Origin: Escherichia coli 042
GTDB lineage: Bacteria; Pseudomonadota; Gammaproteobacteria; Enterobacterales; Enterobacteriaceae
Length of the DNA stretch: 64,000 nucleotides
Reading direction: 5' to 3' (one strand)
Assembly (NCBI RefSeq): GCF_000027125.1
Contig: NC_017626.1
Below, in pieces: positions 2,687-28,514 of this stretch. A model generated the notes under the pieces. It made no database searches and was not told the DNA's origin. It was given only the letters and a program-made list of their open reading frames with translations. A program made the position numbers and the translations under genes. Position 1 is the first letter of the stretch, and each line of letters begins with the position of its first letter.

Positions 2687-3169
2687 ATGACGAAGAAAAA
2701 AGCACATAAACCTGGTTCAGCGACCATCGCGCTTAACAAGCGCGCCCGTCACGAATACTTTATCGAAGAAGAGTTCGAAGCGGGACTTGCCCTGCAAGGC
2801 TGGGAGGTTAAATCCCTGCGCGCAGGAAAAGCCAATATCAGCGACAGCTACGTCCTTCTGCGTGACGGAGAGGCATTTCTGTTTGGCGCTAACATCACGC
2901 CAATGGCCGTGGCCTCCACGCATGTGGTGTGCGATCCTACCCGTACCCGCAAGTTACTTCTCAACCAGCGCGAACTGGACTCATTGTACGGTCGCGTCAA
3001 TCGAGAAGGCTATACCGTAGTGGCGCTCTCCCTGTACTGGAAAAATGCCTGGTGCAAAGTGAAAATCGGCGTCGCCAAAGGTAAAAAACAGCACGATAAA
3101 CGTTCAGATATCAAAGAACGCGAATGGCAGGTGGATAAAGCACGTATCATGAAAAACGCCCACCGTTAA
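2687..3169 (+). CDS. smpB: SsrA-binding protein SmpB
   Basis: 160 aa, [28 protein letters not shown]... is the SmpB N-terminus; immediately upstream of tmRNA. Confidence 0.95.
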
Positions 3170-3383
3170 ACCTGCACTCCAATTATTGACCAATTCCTCA
3201 CCGCGCCTCCCTCTCCGGCGGCGCGAATGAACATCTTATTGGCTATCACATCCGACGAAAATGTTGCCATCCCATTGCTTAATCGAATAAAAATCAGGCT
3301 ACATGGTCGCTAAATCTTTAACGATAACGCCATTGAGGCTGGTCATGGCGCTCATAAATCTGGTATACTTACCGTTACACATT

Positions 3384-3746
3384 GGGGCTGATTCTGGATT
3401 CGACGGGATTTGCGAAACCCAAGGTGCATGCCGAGGGGCGGTTGGCCTCGTAAAAAGCCGCAAAAAATAGTCGCAAACGACGAAAACTACGCTTTAGCAG
3501 CTTAATAACCTGCTTAGAGCCCTCTCTCCCTAGCCTCCGCTCTTAGGACGGGGATCAAGAGAGGTCAAACCCAAAAGAGATCGCGTGGAAGCCCTGCCTG
3601 GGGTTGAAGCGTTAAAACTTAATCAGGCTAGTTTGTTAGTGGCGTGTCCGTCCGCAGCTGGCAAGCGAATGTAAAGACTGACTAAGCATGTAGTACCGAG
3701 GACGTAGGAATTTCGGACGCGGGTTCAACTCCCGCCAGCTCCACCA
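3384..3746 (+). ncRNA. ssrA: tmRNA (SsrA), 363 nt
   Basis: Starts GGGGCTGATTCTGGATTCGACGGG, contains tag reading frame gcaaacgacgaaaactacgctttagcagcttaa (ANDENYALAA*), ends GGGTTCAACTCCCGCCAGCTCCACCA. Confidence 0.97.
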
Positions 3747-3781
3747 CTTTTTAGTAAAACAAAGTCTACTAAAGACTATCA

Positions 3782-3813
3782 AGGCCGCACCTCACAAGGG
3801 TTGCGGCCTTTTT
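3782..3813 (+). terminator. Stem-loop plus T-run downstream of ssrA
   Basis: AGGCCGCA ... TGCGGCCT inverted repeat followed by TTTTC, 36 nt after tmRNA 3' end. Confidence 0.55.
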
Positions 3814-3912
3814 CATGTCTAGCAGAGTCTACTGAGAATTGCTAGAAGCTACGCATTATGGGACCCTTATATGGACCCACCGACTGGGTCCAATAATTTG
3901 AGGGTCCAATAC

Positions 3913-5142
3913 ATGGCAAGGCAGACTAAAAAACTCACAGACACTGAAATCAAAAACACCAAACCAGCAGACAAAGAGATCAATCTCTTCGATGGTGATG
4001 GGCTACTGCTACGAATCGCTCCTTCATCAAAAGGAGGGAAGAAGAACTGGTATCTCAGATATCCAGTGCCAGTAACCAAGAAGCGCACCAAGATGAGCTT
4101 GGGTACCTACCCTCACCTCTCATTAGCAAAGGCAAGAGCTTTGCGTGATGAATACCTGTCGTTACTTGCTAATGGTGTTGACCCTCAAGTCCACATCACT
4201 GAAAAAACTAATGCTCTGAAAGATGCCACGGAGCACACGCTACAAGCAGTTTCTCGAAAGTGGTTAGATGAGAAAATTAAGACTTCTGGCATCTCTCTAG
4301 ACCATGCAGAAGATATCTGGCGCAGCCTCGAAAAAAACATCTTTTCAACTCTGGGTGATGTTCCTATCAAAGAGATCCGCCCCAAAATGCTCAAGCAGCA
4401 TCTTGACCCAATTGAGCAGCGCGGTGTTCTCGAAACTCTACGTCGTATAATTTCCAGACTGAATGAAATCTTTCGCTATGCTGCCACGGAAGAGCTTATA
4501 GAGTTCAATCCTGCCGACAATCTCGCTCAGCGTTTCAGTAAACCTAAGAAGCAAAACATGCCTGCCCTTCCACCTGATGAGCTACCACGCTTCATGGTTG
4601 CTTTATCTAACGCATCTATACGGTTAGAAACCCGTATGCTGATCGAGTGGCAATTGTTGACGTGGGTAAGGCCCGGTGAAGCCGTTCGGGCAAGATGGTG
4701 TGATATTGATGAAGAGAGCAGATTTTGGAATATCCCTTCAGAATTCATGAAAATGAAACGCCCACATAAGGTTCCATTGAGTAAAGAAGCTCTCCGCATT
4801 TTAGAAAACATGCGCCCTATCAGTGGTCATAGAGAATGGGTTTTCCCCAGCATCAAAGCTCCCCTCAGTCATATGCATGAACAAACAGCTAATGCAGCCA
4901 TAATTCGTATGGGGTTTGGCGGAGAGCTTGTTGCTCATGGTATGAGATCTATTGCAAGGACAGCAGCCGAAGAATACGGTAAGTTTAGAACGGAGGTGCT
5001 TGAATCCGCTCTGGCTCATACTAAAAAAGATGAAATAATAGCCGCGTATAACCGTTCGGAATACCTAGTTGAAAGAGAAGAACTAATGAAATGGTGGGGG
5101 GATTATGTCAGCAGCAAAAAATATAAGATGATGGCAGCATAA
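3913..5142 (+). CDS. Tyrosine recombinase / integrase, P4 family
   Basis: MARQTKKLTDTEIKNTKPADKEINLFDGDGL... with C-terminal R..HGMRS..A....Y catalytic-region pattern; similar to but diverged from K-12 IntA; ATG at 3913 preferred over ORF-track start 3871. Confidence 0.88.
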   Translation: MARQTKKLTDTEIKNTKPADKEINLFDGDGLLLRIAPSSKGGKKNWYLRYPVPVTKKRTKMSLGTYPHLSLAKARALRDEYLSLLANGVDPQVHITEKTNALKDATEHTLQAVSRKWLDEKIKTSGISLDHAEDIWRSLEKNIFSTLGDVPIKEIRPKMLKQHLDPIEQRGVLETLRRIISRLNEIFRYAATEELIEFNPADNLAQRFSKPKKQNMPALPPDELPRFMVALSNASIRLETRMLIEWQLLTWVRPGEAVRARWCDIDEESRFWNIPSEFMKMKRPHKVPLSKEALRILENMRPISGHREWVFPSIKAPLSHMHEQTANAAIIRMGFGGELVAHGMRSIARTAAEEYGKFRTEVLESALAHTKKDEIIAAYNRSEYLVEREELMKWWGDYVSSKKYKMMAA

Positions 5143-9516: not shown

Positions 9517-9632
9517 AATTACTTTTCCTTCTAGTTGTCAAAAACATGGAATACAATTAAAAAAGGAAAAGGTCAAACCATAGGCAGAAGGTTGAATACT
9601 TTTTATTCCAGATTAAATAACGCAGCGCGAGA

Positions 9633-9696
9633 TGATTGTTCAAAACAATCACATTGCTGGAACAGGGTTCATCCCTGTTAATGATAGGATTCATCT
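9633..9696. promoter_or_regulatory. Copy A of a roughly 64-bp repeat: palindrome TGATTGTT-CAA-AACAATCA plus hairpin ACAGGG-TTCAT-CCCTGT
   Basis: Near-identical copy at 24961-25023; palindrome alone again at 25101-25121; lies upstream of the mobC-like gene. Confidence 0.55.
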
Positions 9697-10149
9697 CAAA
9701 AAATGATGTTTTGGTTTTAAAAATATGATATTAGTAAGCTCAAAATAAAAACATGCAACACATACGAATGCAGTCACTAACATTAATTACCTGATACTCT
9801 CCGCGTTACTTATTTTATTGAATCAATGAAAACAATTTTACCTCTTGCTTTTTGACTCTGATTTCTGGTCTTAACCTGTGAATTGTGCAACACATAAAAG
9901 TATTTATAATTTTCACTATTTATTTTAAATTCTGCTTTCCCGCCTTACGGCGAGAGACTAATTTAACTACTTTTGCCCTTACGGGCGTTTTCTAAACACC
10001 AGAATCCAATATTATTATCCTACCTCAACCGTTTATCCGATTCCTACCTTTTTAATTTCACAGTCTGTAAAACTAGAGCTATTATTTAACTATAGAAAAA
10101 CATAAAACATTGTCGTTATTTTTAGCTCCTTTAGGAGATATAAAAATAA

Positions 10150-24235: not shown

Positions 24236-24401
24236 TTCATTATTACCTCTTGTTGTTTTATTTATAATAAATTAAATACCATGCACAAAAAAGATATCAA
24301 GTTTTTTGCATATTTTTTTGCGAAAATATTTTCAAAATCGCAACTATTCCAGTGACGATACTTTAAAGCACTGTCGTTTTTAAGCTAAAAATGACATAGA
24401 A

Positions 24402-24484
24402 ACTGACTGCAAAGTCAGGAAAGCTCACCGTGCAGTCAGGAATACTGACTATAGAGTCAGGAACACTGACTGTACGGTCAGTCG
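24402..24484. repeat. Iteron-like array: 3-4 tandem units of ACTGACT-N4/5-AGTCAGGAA at about 21-22 bp periodicity
   Basis: AGTCAGGAA at 24412, 24434 and 24455; ACTGACT at 24402, 24444 and 24465; each unit is an inverted repeat. Confidence 0.65.
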
Positions 24485-24960
24485 TATATTTTCGTTCTAA
24501 GCCTTATGCCGTAAGGGCTACAGGCCGGTTTTTTCTTAATTTAATTTTGCAAGAAGTAAGAGATAATACTTAATAGGATTAAAAGAAACCGGGCGATTTT
24601 TATAATCGCCATACAGGGTTTCAATATTTTAAATGATTAGTTTTTTTGAGTGCAATATTTATTTTTATTGCGAAGCATTTCTTTCTATTTCACTAACATC
24701 TTTTTTTTGAAAATCACCACCATCTATGAGCTGAAGCTCATGTGCTGACGCACGGCTACGCCCTAACTCTGAAATATGTATTTTTATCTTGATGAGGTGT
24801 CTTATTAATATTGATAGTAAAAAGAGGAAAGATCTTTTCCAGATCATTTCATCATAAAAAACAAAATTGATCCTATGTTTGAACATAGCATTACCGCAAT
24901 AACATATAGCATTTTCCCTTAAACGAATAGGAAAATTATATTTTCAGTAGCAGCACTTAG

Positions 24961-25121
24961 TGATTGTTCAAGACAATCACATTGCTGGAACAGGGTTCAT
25001 CCCTGTCAATGATGGATTTATCCATAAAGAATTGCGGCGATAGCCGCTATGAAATAAAGGAGAAACAATTTCATCTGTACTCATATATAAGCAGTGCTAA
25101 GTGATTGTTTAAAACAATCAC
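24961..25121. promoter_or_regulatory. Copy B of the 64-bp repeat (24961-25023) plus a third copy of the palindrome GTGATTGTTTAAAACAATCAC (25101-25121)
   Basis: Copy B is about 90 percent identical to copy A at 9633-9696, including hairpin ACAGGGTTCATCCCTGT. Confidence 0.55.
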
Positions 25122-25389: not shown

Positions 25390-25480
25390 AAGGTTATAGG
25401 TTCCTATAACTATGGTTATCGATATCTATAACTCGGATTATAGTTTACTATAACCATAATTAGCAAAAACTATAACTATA
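25390..25480. repeat. Cluster of about six CTATAAC / GTTATAG motifs in direct and inverted orientation
   Basis: aggttataggttcctataactatggttatcgatatctataactcggattatagtttactataaccataattagcaaaaactataactatagtt; about 200-300 bp upstream of the 25693 gene. Confidence 0.55.
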
Positions 25481-25692
25481 GTTCCGCACTGAAACTAATC
25501 TTTAAAACTGGCGAGCATTCCACTCTCAATAAACTTATTCCAGTCACGAATCAATAACGGCTTCAATTTATCCTGTTCTGTGGATGGTTTTCCACTATAT
25601 TAAAACTTTTTCCACTTATTTTTGACTTTGTTATTGACCATAGTGTTTAATCTGTTATGTATTAATAAAAACAATAACAAAAGGAAAATACA

Positions 25693-26391
25693 ATGACACA
25701 AATAGATTTTCAATCTCTTAGCAGTTTATCCCCCTTTCAGCTAACACAGTATATTGATGATCATCTTTTCACTAATGAACAGAAAGTGCAGATATTCGAA
25801 CATTATCACAGCACACATAAAGACACTACCAATATCTATTCGAGAAAAGAAAACATTAAATCTATTAAAAAAGATGTTGATTATGTCCATATGTTCACAA
25901 AAAACTTCCAGCAACTCGCAGAACTTGATATTTCCAAGAATGAGTTGAAGGTTATCGCAAGGATTTTAAACATCATGGAGTTTGGAAACTGCTTTCATAT
26001 ATCGCAAGCAAAGCTATGCCGCGACTTAGATATTAAAAAATCAAATATGTCTCTTGTCTTTAAAAAGCTCAAAAAGAAAGGGATCATTATTGATAAAGAT
26101 GGAGATCTCTTTATGAACTCCAACATATTTCTTAAGGGACAAGCGCATTCTATCAATGCCAAACAACGCCCTAATGTTAAAAAGGCACAGGGATTTAACG
26201 CTAATAATGAACCAGTATTTGATAATGTTTATACATTTAATCAAACAAATGATTCTGACAATCAACCTACAGAAGGAATGACTACATCTGAGCCACCAAA
26301 AACATCTGATAGCTGTTCTAACAAAGAAACAGATCCAGCACTGACGCTGCAGTATCCTAAAACAGAAGAGCCAGCTTATGATGATGTTTAA
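25693..26391 (+). CDS. Winged-helix DNA-binding protein, candidate Rep-like or regulator (232 aa)
   Basis: ...ISQAKLCRDLDIKKSNMSLVFKKLKKKGIIIDKDGDLFMNSNIFLKG winged-helix-like block; repeat array upstream. Confidence 0.5.
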   Translation: MTQIDFQSLSSLSPFQLTQYIDDHLFTNEQKVQIFEHYHSTHKDTTNIYSRKENIKSIKKDVDYVHMFTKNFQQLAELDISKNELKVIARILNIMEFGNCFHISQAKLCRDLDIKKSNMSLVFKKLKKKGIIIDKDGDLFMNSNIFLKGQAHSINAKQRPNVKKAQGFNANNEPVFDNVYTFNQTNDSDNQPTEGMTTSEPPKTSDSCSNKETDPALTLQYPKTEEPAYDDV

Positions 26392-28280: not shown

Positions 28281-28514
28281 TTATGCTACTTTATTACGTG
28301 ATAAAGTAATCTTTTCATCAATCCACTTATCTATATCACTCTCTAAGAATGCTATTGCTCTTTCACCAAGTTTTATTGGCGATGGGAATTCATTACGACT
28401 AATCAAACGATAAATCCACGCTTTACATAAACCAGTACGATTTAATACTTCTGGTAAACGAATAAGTCTTTTACTGTTTGATACTACATTAGTATTCATC
28501 TTTATCTCCTTCAC
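28281..28514 (-). CDS. alpA: AlpA-family phage regulatory protein (small HTH regulator/excisionase-like)
   Basis: 77 aa; KRLIRLPEVLNRTGLCKAWIYRLISRNEFPSPIKLGERAIAFLESDIDKWI fits the AlpA pattern. Confidence 0.8.
   Translation of the reverse strand: MKEIKMNTNVVSNSKRLIRLPEVLNRTGLCKAWIYRLISRNEFPSPIKLGERAIAFLESDIDKWIDEKITLSRNKVA

What the first reader, a model, noticed from the sequence alone, without database searches (positions are those of the whole stretch)
3841..3912. Direct and inverted GGGTCC/GGACCC repeats immediately upstream of the integrase start
tgggacccttatatggacccaccgactgggtccaataatttgagggtccaatacatg contains two GGGTCCAATA direct repeats and inverted GGACCC/GGGTCC pairs ending at the integrase ATG. 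These are candidate integrase arm-type or regulator binding sites controlling int expression.
Basis: seen in the sequence. Interest (0 to 1): 0.3.

Follow-up and report, generated by a model that had tools for sequence, protein, structure and literature searches.

The report
Integrase arm-type sites upstream of int
The four GGACCC/GGGTCC repeats just before the integrase gene are most likely the docking sites for the integrase's own N-terminal domain, on the arm of the attachment site of an island inserted in the E. coli tmRNA gene; this is an ordinary, expected feature of P4-type integration modules.

Summary
Four of the window's six GGACCC/GGGTCC hexamers lie within 47 bp (3861-3907): two direct, then two inverted, ending 5 nt before the integrase ATG (3913).

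The window is E. coli. A ~26.4-kb mobilisable island (3747-30119) sits in the 3' end of ssrA, and the repeats lie 120-170 bp from the crossover core, in the integrase-proximal arm of attL.

All four sites are conserved in 30 related ssrA islands from over 15 genera, while the spacers vary. Sister clades keep the layout (first two sites exactly 12 bp apart) with other motifs. Phage P4's record annotates the same layout as "attP arm sequence repeat".

Twice, independently, sites 2-4 and the integrase's Arm-DNA-bind_3 domain were replaced together in otherwise 90-100% identical backbones. In P4 and a Kluyvera island the motif recurs on the far arm.

Best reading (about 0.78): P' arm-type integrase-binding sites. 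Autorepression of int, as in P4 and KplE1, is inferred only; no promoter was found in this clade.

Less supported rivals are AlpA-like excisionase sites and an RNA hairpin that hides the ribosome-binding site (-29.6 kcal/mol, no covariation).

Verdict: new member of a known kind, low-to-moderate interest.

The parts
3384..3746 (+). ssrA (tmRNA) gene, the integration target
   Evidence: ARAGORN; Rfam RF00023, 292.8 bits; annotated as ssrA in a 99.9% identical genome.
3721..3746 (+). attL core: the ssrA 3' end retained at the island junction. The probable strand-exchange overlap is CGCCAGC at 3733-3739.
   Evidence: This block is repeated at internal att junctions of tandem islands. CGCCAGC is the only stretch shared with the attR remnant at 30112-30118. 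The empty attB site is shown.
3783..3813 (+). Island-supplied replacement terminator for ssrA: GGCCGCA...TGCGGCC followed by T5
   Evidence: Read from the sequence. The equivalent hairpin plus T-run is present in relatives with changed stem bases (GCCCGCA...TGCGGGC) and is detected as terminator-like in relatives. The scanner missed it here because the loop exceeds its limit.
3817..3856 (+). Conserved block between the terminator and the repeats (GTCTA-N5-GTCTAC, GAGAATTGCT). Candidate site for accessory factors (excisionase or IHF) or an unrecognised promoter; function not established.
   Evidence: Invariant or near-invariant columns in the 30-sequence alignment A2. No sigma-70 consensus was found.
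3857..3866 (+). P'1 arm-type site, TATGGGACCC (direct)
   Evidence: Conserved as GG(G/C)ACCC in 30 relatives. It lies outside the swapped cassette in L029-L031.
3869..3878 (+). P'2 arm-type site, ATATGGACCC (direct), 12 bp after P'1
   Evidence: The 12-bp spacing of the first two sites is shared across clades and with P4.
3886..3895 (-). P'3 arm-type site, inverted (GGGTCCAATA on +, TATTGGACCC on -)
3902..3911 (-). P'4 arm-type site, inverted (GGGTCCAATA on +). It overlaps the int Shine-Dalgarno GAGG at 3900-3903 and ends 1 nt before the ATG.
3913..5142 (+). Integrase: a heterobivalent tyrosine recombinase of the P4 / CP4-57 IntA family
   Evidence: Pfam Arm-DNA-bind_3 at aa 8-95 (E 1.9e-23), Phage_int_M at aa 111-205, Phage_integrase at aa 219-383. 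33% identical to P4 Int over the full length. PGAP start.
28281..28514 (-). AlpA-family gene, the probable recombination directionality factor (excisionase)
   Evidence: Pfam Phage_AlpA PF05930, E 9.5e-18. 31% identical to K-12 AlpA by tblastn, E 5e-9.
30030..30048 (.). Candidate P-arm pair, TGGTTCC (30030-30036) and TGAACCC (30042-30048), 12 bp apart. Each is one mismatch from the P' core (GGAACCA against GGACCCA; GAACCC against GGACCC). The assignment is tentative.
   Evidence: The pair ATGGTTCC-N5-(A/T)G(G/A)ACC(A/C) is conserved at the same distance from attR in three other islands whose surrounding AT-rich DNA differs.
30106..30119 (+). attR core remnant, CAGGGACGCCAGCC; the chromosomal flank resumes at AATCATGATTGG (30120)
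   Evidence: The K-12 flank aligns from 30118. Sequence; empty attB.

Best explanation
The four repeats are the P' (integrase-proximal) arm-type binding sites of the attL site of a ~26.4-kb mobilisable island inserted in the 3' end of E. coli ssrA.

The island's integrase is a heterobivalent tyrosine recombinase. Its C-terminal domains act at the core in the ssrA 3' end (overlap probably CGCCAGC, 3733-3739). Its N-terminal Arm-DNA-bind_3 domain (aa 8-95) docks on the ~10-bp sites WATDGGACCC, two direct (3857-3866, 3869-3878) and two inverted (3886-3895, 3902-3911), which lie 120-170 bp away. Bending of the intervening DNA would let arm-bound and core-bound domains of the same protomers bridge, assembling the recombination complex. 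Direction would be set by the AlpA-family protein encoded at 28281-28514.

Because the sites fill the last 57 bp before the int ATG and the last one covers the ribosome-binding site, occupancy by integrase probably also represses int. This would be negative autoregulation, as in phage P4 and prophage KplE1.

Shown here: the position, the conservation, the family-wide architecture, the co-variation with the N-terminal domain, and the domain content.

Inferred: binding by the integrase, the role in recombination, and autoregulation.
For: (1) Context. The order is smpB, ssrA, island-supplied terminator, repeats, int. The island runs from 3747 to about 30119.

(2) The integrase has the arm-binding domain PF13356.

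(3) Site-wise conservation. In 30 upstream regions from E. coli, Yersinia, Hafnia, Dickeya, Photorhabdus, Serratia, Pantoea and others, the four hexamers are invariant or nearly so. The spacers between them vary in sequence, and by 1-nt indels in length.

(4) Family-wide architecture. Of 68 distinct IntA-family upstream regions, most of them ssrA-adjacent, 37 score as direct-direct-inverted-inverted, and most of the rest are variants of that pattern. The first two sites are exactly 12 bp apart. The motif differs by clade: GGGACCC, TTGGTATACG, TAGGTACACG, TAGGTACC, AGGCCCA, TTAGCACCAC. K-12 CP4-57 has AGGCCCA twice direct plus one inverted copy.

(5) Phage P4's GenBank record annotates 'attP arm sequence repeat' with the same geometry. 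Two direct 12-mers and one inverted copy lie at the int start, 113-170 bp from the core, and two direct copies lie on the other arm.

(6) Cassette co-variation. L029/L030 compared with the window, and L031 compared with L014/L015, are 94-96% identical upstream as far as -50. Identity drops to about 50-70% from -50 to about +300/+400, then mostly returns to 80-100%. The replaced segment is exactly sites 2-4 plus the N-terminal domain, and each new cassette carries three copies of its own motif (TAGTAnCC; CCCTC) in the same direct-inverted-inverted layout. N-domain identity is 64-67%, against 88-93% for the C-terminal part.

(7) Both-arm test in relatives. In a Kluyvera tandem array, the right end of the L044 island carries TTGGTATACG and TAGGTATAC 55-80 bp from its attR core, the same 10-mer as its int-proximal sites. 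K-12 attR has AGGACCA and GGGACCA.

(8) Link to expression. Promoter-like hexamers overlap or adjoin the sites in sister clades (TTGGTA-17-TATAAT and TTGGTA-17-TATACT), in K-12 (TTGATA-17-TATTGT) and in P4 (TTGAAA-18-CATAAT). P4 Int and KplE1 IntS repress their own promoters by binding there (PMC2951348, citing Piazzolla et al. 2006).
Against: No binding or recombination experiment exists for this element.

In the window itself there is no second exact GGACCC cluster. The candidate far-arm pair at 30030-30048 matches only with one mismatch per site, and its conserved form in relatives is a palindrome (TGGTTC-N7-GAACCA). That palindrome could belong to a different, dimeric binder.

The co-variation of sites with the N-terminal domain is confounded by physical adjacency.

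Site 1 did not travel with the cassette in L029-L031.

No sigma-70-like promoter is detectable near the sites in this clade, so the autoregulation step has no mapped target.

The AlpA binding element of Pseudomonas aeruginosa is GGGACG-N5-GGTA (PMC7969949), a superficial resemblance to GGGACCC with about 12-bp spacing.
Confidence: 0.78

Rival explanations
1. The repeats are binding sites for the island's AlpA-family excisionase/regulator (28281-28514) rather than for the integrase. The protein would bend attL for excision and/or regulate int, as P4 Vis and KplE1 TorI do in the int-proximal arm.
For: An AlpA-family gene is present. Winged-helix directionality factors typically bind direct repeats one helical turn apart, and the first two sites are 12 bp apart. 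P. aeruginosa AlpA recognises GGGACG-N5-GGTA (PMC7969949). TorI sites lie in attL next to the intS promoter (PMC2951348).
Against: The motif switches together with the integrase N-terminal domain in two independent cassette replacements.

The same layout in P4 is annotated as attP arm repeats on both arms. Sites on both arms, as also in the Kluyvera island, are typical of integrase arm sites, not of directionality-factor sites.

A separate conserved block at 3817-3856, with 10-bp-spaced GTCTA repeats, lies between core and repeats and is a more natural place for an accessory factor.

The BL21 remnant island keeps the four sites but has no annotated AlpA-family gene. This is weak evidence, because that island is decayed.
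Confidence: 0.1
2. The primary function is at the RNA level. In the int 5' leader the inverted copies pair (site 1 with site 4, site 2 with site 3) into a long hairpin that hides the Shine-Dalgarno sequence and keeps integrase translation low.
For: RNA fold of 3850-3925 gives -29.6 kcal/mol, with a z-score of -4.1 against shuffles; the GAGGG of the ribosome-binding site is paired. The nested inverted layout is found across clades. P4 int is reported to be regulated post-transcriptionally as well (PMC2951348).
Against: There is no covariation support in 30 sequences: 69.6% of cells are paired against 69.4% in shuffles. One outer-stem pair is a C.C mismatch in 27 of 29 sequences. Single-site changes are uncompensated, as in Citrobacter GGGCCCC and Dickeya GGGTGCC.

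In L029/L030 site 4 is an inverted copy of site 2, not of site 1, so the outer stem is lost.

In K-12 and the GGTATAC/GGTACAC clades the ribosome-binding site lies outside the repeats.

The motif also occurs on the far arm, outside any int transcript.

No transcription start has been mapped upstream, and no Rfam family matches.

A hairpin may nevertheless form as a by-product and add to repression.
Confidence: 0.07
3. The repeats are a chance or neutrally inherited feature with no function.
For: Many E. coli copies are identical by descent. Decayed islands such as BL21 keep them.
Against: The cluster never arose in 300 simulations. The sites are conserved while the spacers diverge across more than 15 genera. 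The architecture is kept with different motifs in other clades and in P4.
Confidence: 0.02

Closest known systems
Phage P4 attP arm repeats and the P4 int promoter (Pierson & Kahn 1987; Piazzolla et al. 2006; GenBank NC_001609 features)
   Same: The integrase family is the same (33% identity over the full length, with the same three domains). int is transcribed away from the core. Two direct repeats 12 bp apart plus inverted copy/copies abut the int start, 113-170 bp from the core, and there is a pair on the other arm 55-95 bp from the core. In P4 a promoter-like element overlaps the repeats.
   Different: The motif is GGGGGCA in P4 and (T)GGACCC here. P4 has one inverted copy and this element has two. 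The target is tRNA-Leu in P4 and ssrA here. No promoter is recognisable here. The far-arm copies here are degenerate.
E. coli K-12 cryptic prophage CP4-57 (IntA/AlpA) at ssrA
   Same: Same target and core. The terminator-then-repeats-then-int layout is the same, and both carry an AlpA-family gene. CP4-57 has AGGCCCA twice direct plus TGGGCCT inverted before intA, and AGGACCA/GGGACCA near attR.
   Different: The integrase is only about 50-57% identical. The motif differs. K-12 has three sites and a separate ribosome-binding site, and it has a promoter-like TTGATA-17-TATTGT among the sites. Its cargo is different and includes no conjugation genes.
KplE1 (CPS-53) attL / intS autoregulation (Panis et al. 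2010, PMC2951348)
   Same: The int promoter region overlaps attL. P' arm-type sites lie between the core and the int start. The integrase and its directionality factor repress int. int and the directionality-factor gene are uncoupled at opposite ends of the element.
   Different: It is a different integrase lineage with a different target (argW). In KplE1 the sites were footprinted and mutated; here nothing is experimentally tested and the promoter is unmapped.
Lambda Int arm-type sites (P1, P2, P'1-P'3)
   Same: The principle is the same: a heterobivalent integrase whose N-terminal domain binds short repeated arm sites distinct from the core (established knowledge; summarised in PMC2951348).
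   Different: In lambda, int is transcribed towards attP and its promoters are not in the arm. Lambda's arm-binding domain belongs to a different family, and the number and orientation of sites differ.
Pseudomonas aeruginosa AlpA binding element (GGGACG-N5-GGTA; PMC7969949)
   Same: A GGGAC-containing element is recognised by an AlpA-family protein, and an AlpA-family gene is present in this island.
   Different: That element is a single site between the -35 and -10 of a promoter and is used to load an antiterminator. Here there are four copies in two orientations, no recognisable promoter, and the GGTA half is absent.

Membership tests
Arm-type integrase-binding sites of a heterobivalent tyrosine recombinase (P4-family attP/attL arm repeats) | Several copies of a short motif, distinct from the core, located in the arm tens to about 170 bp from the crossover core | tested here: met
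   There are four copies at 3857-3911. The core is at 3721-3746, and the distance of 120-170 bp matches P4's 113-170 bp.
Arm-type integrase-binding sites of a heterobivalent tyrosine recombinase (P4-family attP/attL arm repeats) | The cognate integrase carries an N-terminal arm-DNA-binding domain | tested here: met
   PF13356 Arm-DNA-bind_3 at aa 8-95, E 1.9e-23.
Arm-type integrase-binding sites of a heterobivalent tyrosine recombinase (P4-family attP/attL arm repeats) | Related copies of the motif on both arms (P and P') of the same element | tested here: inconclusive
   In the window there are only one-mismatch candidates, TGGTTCC and TGAACCC at 30030-30048. They are conserved in three other islands, but as a palindrome. 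The feature is clearly met in P4 and in the Kluyvera L044 island, and approximately met in K-12.
Arm-type integrase-binding sites of a heterobivalent tyrosine recombinase (P4-family attP/attL arm repeats) | Sites conserved as sites, and motif specificity tracks the integrase N-terminal domain across relatives | tested here: met
   Alignment A2; motif classes by clade; two independent swaps of sites 2-4 together with the N-domain. Caveat: the sites and the domain are physically adjacent.
Arm-type integrase-binding sites of a heterobivalent tyrosine recombinase (P4-family attP/attL arm repeats) | Direct binding by the integrase N-terminal domain, and a requirement for recombination | not testable with these tools
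   This needs EMSA or footprinting and att-site recombination assays.
Negatively autoregulated integrase genes with the promoter inside attL (KplE1 intS / P4 int type) | int lies next to attL, is transcribed away from the core, and is uncoupled from the directionality-factor gene | tested here: met
   int is at 3913-5142 (+), directly after attL. The AlpA-family gene is at the other end, 28281-28514 (-).
Negatively autoregulated integrase genes with the promoter inside attL (KplE1 intS / P4 int type) | The int promoter or transcription start overlaps the integrase binding sites | tested here: inconclusive
   No sigma-70-like promoter was found in 3300-4300 or in a clade relative. Site 4 does overlap the Shine-Dalgarno sequence. 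Sister clades, K-12 and P4 have promoter-like hexamers among the sites.
Negatively autoregulated integrase genes with the promoter inside attL (KplE1 intS / P4 int type) | Integrase represses its own expression | not testable with these tools
   This needs reporter fusions with and without integrase supplied in trans.
Structured cis-regulatory RNA leader (translational hairpin) | Stable structure supported by compensatory changes across relatives | tested here: not met
   The structure is stable (-29.6 kcal/mol, z -4.1), but there is no covariation. Pairing is 69.6% against 69.4% in shuffles, and one pair is C.C in 27 of 29 sequences. No Rfam family matches.
AlpA/Vis/TorI-type directionality-factor binding sites | Bound by the element's winged-helix directionality factor; typically direct repeats on one arm only | not testable with these tools
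   The gene is present. The layout here mixes direct and inverted copies, and in relatives the motif is on both arms, which does not fit the usual pattern. Binding itself is untested.

The most novel reading that the evidence does not exclude
The arm sites and the integrase N-terminal domain form an exchangeable cassette. ssrA islands share one core specificity but swap this cassette, which would create mutually orthogonal recombination modules. Several islands stacked in tandem at the single ssrA site could then each be excised by its own integrase without cross-reaction.

Two independent cassette replacements fit this idea. So do the two tandem arrays seen here, whose neighbours carry different motif classes: GGGACCC next to GGTATAC, and GGTATAC next to GGTACAC. 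With only two arrays, this proves nothing.
Probability: 0.3. Interest if true: 0.5.

Novelty: new member of a known kind. Interest (0 to 1): 0.28.

Why it matters
On its own it matters little. It annotates the functional attL arm of a widespread family of ssrA-inserted islands, present in about a quarter of complete E. coli genomes and in many Enterobacterales.

It gives a usable sequence definition of the sites: WATDGGACCC, two direct 12 bp apart followed by two inverted. That definition can help delimit such islands, predict which integrase acts on which island in tandem arrays, and design minimal attP substrates.

The comparative by-product has more general interest. A conserved direct-direct-inverted-inverted layout across the P4 family, with the motif and the arm-binding domain exchanged as a unit, bears on how integrase specificity diversifies. 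It offers natural chimeras (L029/L030, L031) for testing which residues of the Arm-DNA-bind_3 domain read the DNA.

Tried and rejected
(1) N-terminal coding extension from the in-frame ATG at 3871. Rejected, for three reasons:
- Relatives have 1-nt indels in this stretch.
- The PGAP start is 3913.
- Homologues and P4 Int align from the downstream start.

(2) A sigma-70 promoter formed by or next to the sites. None was found in the window or in a clade relative. Manual trials with TTGCTA (3839-3844), CATTAT (3854-3859) and TATATG (3869-3874) gave impossible spacings.

(3) A sigma-54 promoter (TGGCAC-N5-TTGC), suggested by TGGCACCC in relatives. Rejected because the -12 GC is absent and the window itself has TGGGAC.

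(4) A known RNA family. Rfam finds only tmRNA.

(5) An RNA hairpin as the main function. It is stable but has no covariation.

(6) A second copy of the ssrA 3' end or of the K-12 attR sequence in the window, as a way to find attR. None was found within 3 mismatches. attR was located instead by aligning the K-12 flank.

(7) The phage phi467 record (LN997803) as an intact attP for this integrase. At first this looked decisive. The whole record then showed a lambdoid Stx prophage region that lacks distal tail genes and has a second, short recombinase gene on the other side of the att site. The site may therefore be a tandem junction rather than a true attP, so its GGACCA pair was not used as evidence for this element's far arm.

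(8) BL21(DE3) as a test of sites without AlpA. The island there is a truncated remnant, so it is uninformative.

(9) The de novo 7-mer architecture score against random 85-nt controls was noisy, with controls often reaching 3-4 'sites' at one mismatch. The argument therefore rests on the consistent order and the exact 12-bp spacing, not on site counts.

Full report
**Observation**

GGACCC lies at 3861-3866 and 3873-3878, and GGGTCC at 3886-3891 and 3902-3907. GGGTCCAATA is exact at 3886-3895 and 3902-3911, with a one-mismatch inverted copy at 3857-3866. The array ends one base before the integrase ATG at 3913.

Only six such hexamers occur in the 64-kb window, against 13.8 +/- 3.9 expected. 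In 300 first-order Markov simulations no 50-nt stretch held more than two. GGRYCC as a class is three-fold depleted in the window.

**Context**

The window is E. coli chromosome. smpB (2687-3169) is followed by ssrA (tmRNA, 3384-3746). Next comes a GC-rich hairpin plus T-run (3783-3813) that replaces the ssrA terminator, then the repeats, then a 409-aa integrase (3913-5142).

The integrase has Arm-DNA-bind_3 (aa 8-95), Phage_int_M and Phage_integrase domains. It is 33% identical to phage P4 Int over its whole length.

In a 99.9% identical genome the downstream genes include a DNA methyltransferase, a MobQ relaxase, TraD-, TraW- and DotA/TraY-family proteins and an H-NS-family protein. The element is therefore an integrative mobilisable or conjugative island rather than a phage.

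Aligning the K-12 flank places the right junction at about 30119. The island is thus about 26.4 kb, which agrees with the low G+C from about 4 to 30 kb. An AlpA-family gene lies near the right end (28281-28514, minus strand).

**Conservation**

Relatives of this integrase are found next to ssrA in 1354 of 5426 complete E. coli genomes. A scan of one genome per species returned 80 loci across Enterobacterales.

In an alignment of 30 upstream regions from E. coli, Yersinia, Hafnia, Dickeya, Photorhabdus, Serratia, Pantoea, Sodalis and others, the four hexamers are invariant or nearly so. They read GG(G/C)ACCC, GGGACCC, GGGTCC and GGGTCC(C). The spacers between them differ in sequence, and by 1-nt indels in length. 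Those indels also show that the stretch is non-coding, which rules out the upstream in-frame ATG at 3871.

**Family-wide architecture**

More distant integrases of the family (about 50% identity) keep the layout with other motifs. These include TTGGTATACG, TAGGTACACG, TAGGTACC, AGGCCCA and TTAGCACCAC.

Of 68 distinct upstream regions, 37 score as direct-direct-inverted-inverted, and most of the rest are variants of that pattern. The first two sites are exactly 12 bp apart in nearly every clade.

K-12 CP4-57 has AGGCCCA twice direct and once inverted before intA.

The P4 GenBank record annotates 'attP arm sequence repeat' features with the same geometry:
- two adjacent direct 12-mers (GGGGGCA core) plus one inverted copy overlapping the int start, 113-170 bp from the core;
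- two direct copies on the other arm.

The distances in the window, 120-170 bp from the probable overlap CGCCAGC at 3733-3739, match these.

**Co-variation with the arm-binding domain**

Three loci whose integrases are 83% identical overall have different motifs at sites 2-4. These are TAGTA(C/G/T)CC in L029/L030 and (T/C)CCCTC in L031.

Sliding identity shows the pattern clearly. L029 compared with the window, and L031 compared with L014, are 94-96% identical upstream as far as -50. Identity falls to about 50-70% from -50 to about +300/+400. Beyond that it mostly returns to 80-100%.

At protein level, residues 1-75 are 64-67% identical while the C-terminal part is 88-93% identical.

So in two different backbones the segment 'sites 2-4 plus arm-binding domain' was replaced as a unit. 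Each incoming cassette carries three copies of its own motif in the same direct-inverted-inverted order. Adjacency alone could link the sites and the domain. However, the coincident boundaries in two independent events, and the internally consistent new motifs, argue for a functional module. Site 1 stayed with the backbone in these cases, which remains unexplained.

**The other arm**

Integrase arm sites are expected on both arms.
- P4 shows this.
- In a Kluyvera contig with two islands in tandem, the right end of the first island carries TTGGTATACG and TAGGTATAC 55-80 bp from the internal att core. This is the same 10-mer as the sites before that island's int.
- K-12 attR has AGGACCA and GGGACCA at the equivalent place.

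In the window there is no second exact cluster. The equivalent position holds TGGTTCC (30030-30036) and TGAACCC (30042-30048), 12 bp apart, each one mismatch from the int-proximal core. This pair is conserved as ATGGTTCC-N5-(A/T)G(G/A)ACC(A/C) in three other islands whose neighbouring AT-rich DNA differs. It is therefore probably functional.

Its conserved form is a palindrome, however, so it could belong to another binder. I rate this test inconclusive for the window.

The phi467 record first looked like an intact attP, with GGACCA twice on the far arm. The full record suggests a possible tandem junction instead, so I do not rely on it.

**Expression**

The last site overlaps the GAGG Shine-Dalgarno (3900-3903). 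No sigma-70-like promoter is detectable between ssrA and int in the window, or in a relative of the same clade.

Elsewhere in the family, promoter-like hexamers overlap or adjoin the sites:
- sister clades: TTGGTA-17-TATAAT and TTGGTA-17-TATACT, with the -35 inside site 1 and site 2 in the spacer;
- K-12: TTGATA-17-TATTGT;
- P4: TTGAAA-18-CATAAT, with the -10 across the first two repeats.

P4 Int and KplE1 IntS repress their own promoters by binding at such positions (PMC2951348, citing Piazzolla et al. 2006).

Autorepression here is therefore a reasonable inference, but it has no mapped promoter. Transcription could come from read-through of the ssrA terminator or from an unrecognised promoter in the conserved block at 3817-3856.

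**Rivals**

(a) AlpA-family protein binding. The gene is present, and P. aeruginosa AlpA recognises GGGACG-N5-GGTA (PMC7969949). Against this stand the both-arm occurrence in relatives, the mixed orientations, the co-variation with the integrase N-domain and the P4 annotation, all of which favour the integrase. A separate conserved block between core and repeats (3817-3856) is a better candidate for accessory factors.

(b) RNA hairpin. The leader folds at -29.6 kcal/mol (z -4.1) and buries the ribosome-binding site. However:
- The 30-sequence alignment gives no covariation, with 69.6% paired against 69.4% in shuffles.
- One outer pair is C.C in 27 of 29 sequences, and single-site changes are uncompensated.
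- The outer stem is lost in L029/L030.
- Sister clades place the ribosome-binding site outside the repeats.

The hairpin may still form as a by-product and add to repression.

(c) Chance or neutral inheritance is excluded.

**Comparison with the known, and verdict**

The feature works like, and by position, architecture and protein family belongs with, the arm-type repeats of P4-family attachment sites. The closest relatives are P4 attP, CP4-57 attL and, by regulatory logic, KplE1 attL/intS.

The defining features that can be tested by sequence are met, except two. The far-arm copies are degenerate in the window, and promoter overlap is not found. Binding and function cannot be tested here.

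It is a new member of a known kind. I found no description of the sites for this integrase clade in the papers searched. Interest is low to moderate. The most interesting by-product is the cassette exchange of arm sites with the arm-binding domain among islands that share the ssrA core.

Noticed in passing
window 30106-30125 (attR), compared with L098 70-95 (empty attB): The attR core reads CAGGGACGCCAGCCAATCATG. The empty site reads ...CCCGCCAGCTCCACCAATCATG, so attR lacks 5 nt (TCCAC). Excision by crossover in CGCCAGC would leave an ssrA without its 3' acceptor end. The same shortened attR is shared by other E. coli, including O157:H7 (L093, L095), so the right end may be an old scar and the island may be excision-defective or costly to lose.
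   Followed up: partly
window 24390-24470: A dense array of AGTCAGGAA direct repeats interleaved with the inverted ACTGACT (4 AGTCAG/CTGACT hexamers in 50 nt). It lies in an intergenic stretch of the island and could be a regulator, iteron or transfer-origin-like binding array.
   Followed up: no
window 25430-25485: A cluster of TATAGTT/AACTATA inverted repeats, with 5 ACTATA/TATAGT hexamers in 50 nt, the densest hexamer cluster in the window. It lies upstream of the ORF at 25693.
   Followed up: no
window 9622-9704 and 24950-25032: An 83-nt direct repeat (81% identical) occurs 15.3 kb apart inside the island, containing a GATTGTTCAAnACAATC palindrome. It may be a repeated operator or promoter module of the transfer genes.
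   Followed up: no
window 3817-3856: A block conserved across genera lies between the ssrA terminator and the arm sites (GTCTA-N5-GTCTAC, then GAGAATTGCT). By eye (not checked with any tool), sister clades, K-12 and P4 have TCCGA/GTCC-type boxes at the equivalent place. It is a candidate site for the excisionase or IHF.
   Followed up: partly
L029/L030, L031 against window and L014 (locus coordinates about 2950-3400): Two independent recombinational replacements cover a segment of about 350-450 bp: arm sites 2-4 plus the integrase N-terminal domain. Site 1 (GGCACCC/GACACCC) stays with the backbone.
   Followed up: yes
L038/L045 (contig CABIZV010000004.1), L044/L067 (Kluyvera sichuanensis contig), L007, L009, L011: Tandem arrays of islands occur at ssrA, with internal att junctions. 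Neighbouring islands carry different arm-motif classes. The phi467 'phage' record contains such a junction, followed by intA and non-phage genes.
   Followed up: partly
window 37995-38070 (-): A tRNA with a CAT anticodon, called Met by ARAGORN, lies downstream of the ypjA-like autotransporter (30281-34984, minus strand). By position it is probably ileY (tRNA-Ile2).
   Followed up: no
whole window: GGRYCC hexamers are about three-fold under-represented: 11 observed against 32.9 +/- 5.4 expected from dinucleotide-preserving shuffles.
   Followed up: no
window 46257-46407: Two 62-nt direct repeats (89% identical), 89 bp apart, have the look of REP/BIME-type extragenic palindromes in the chromosomal flank.
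   Followed up: no
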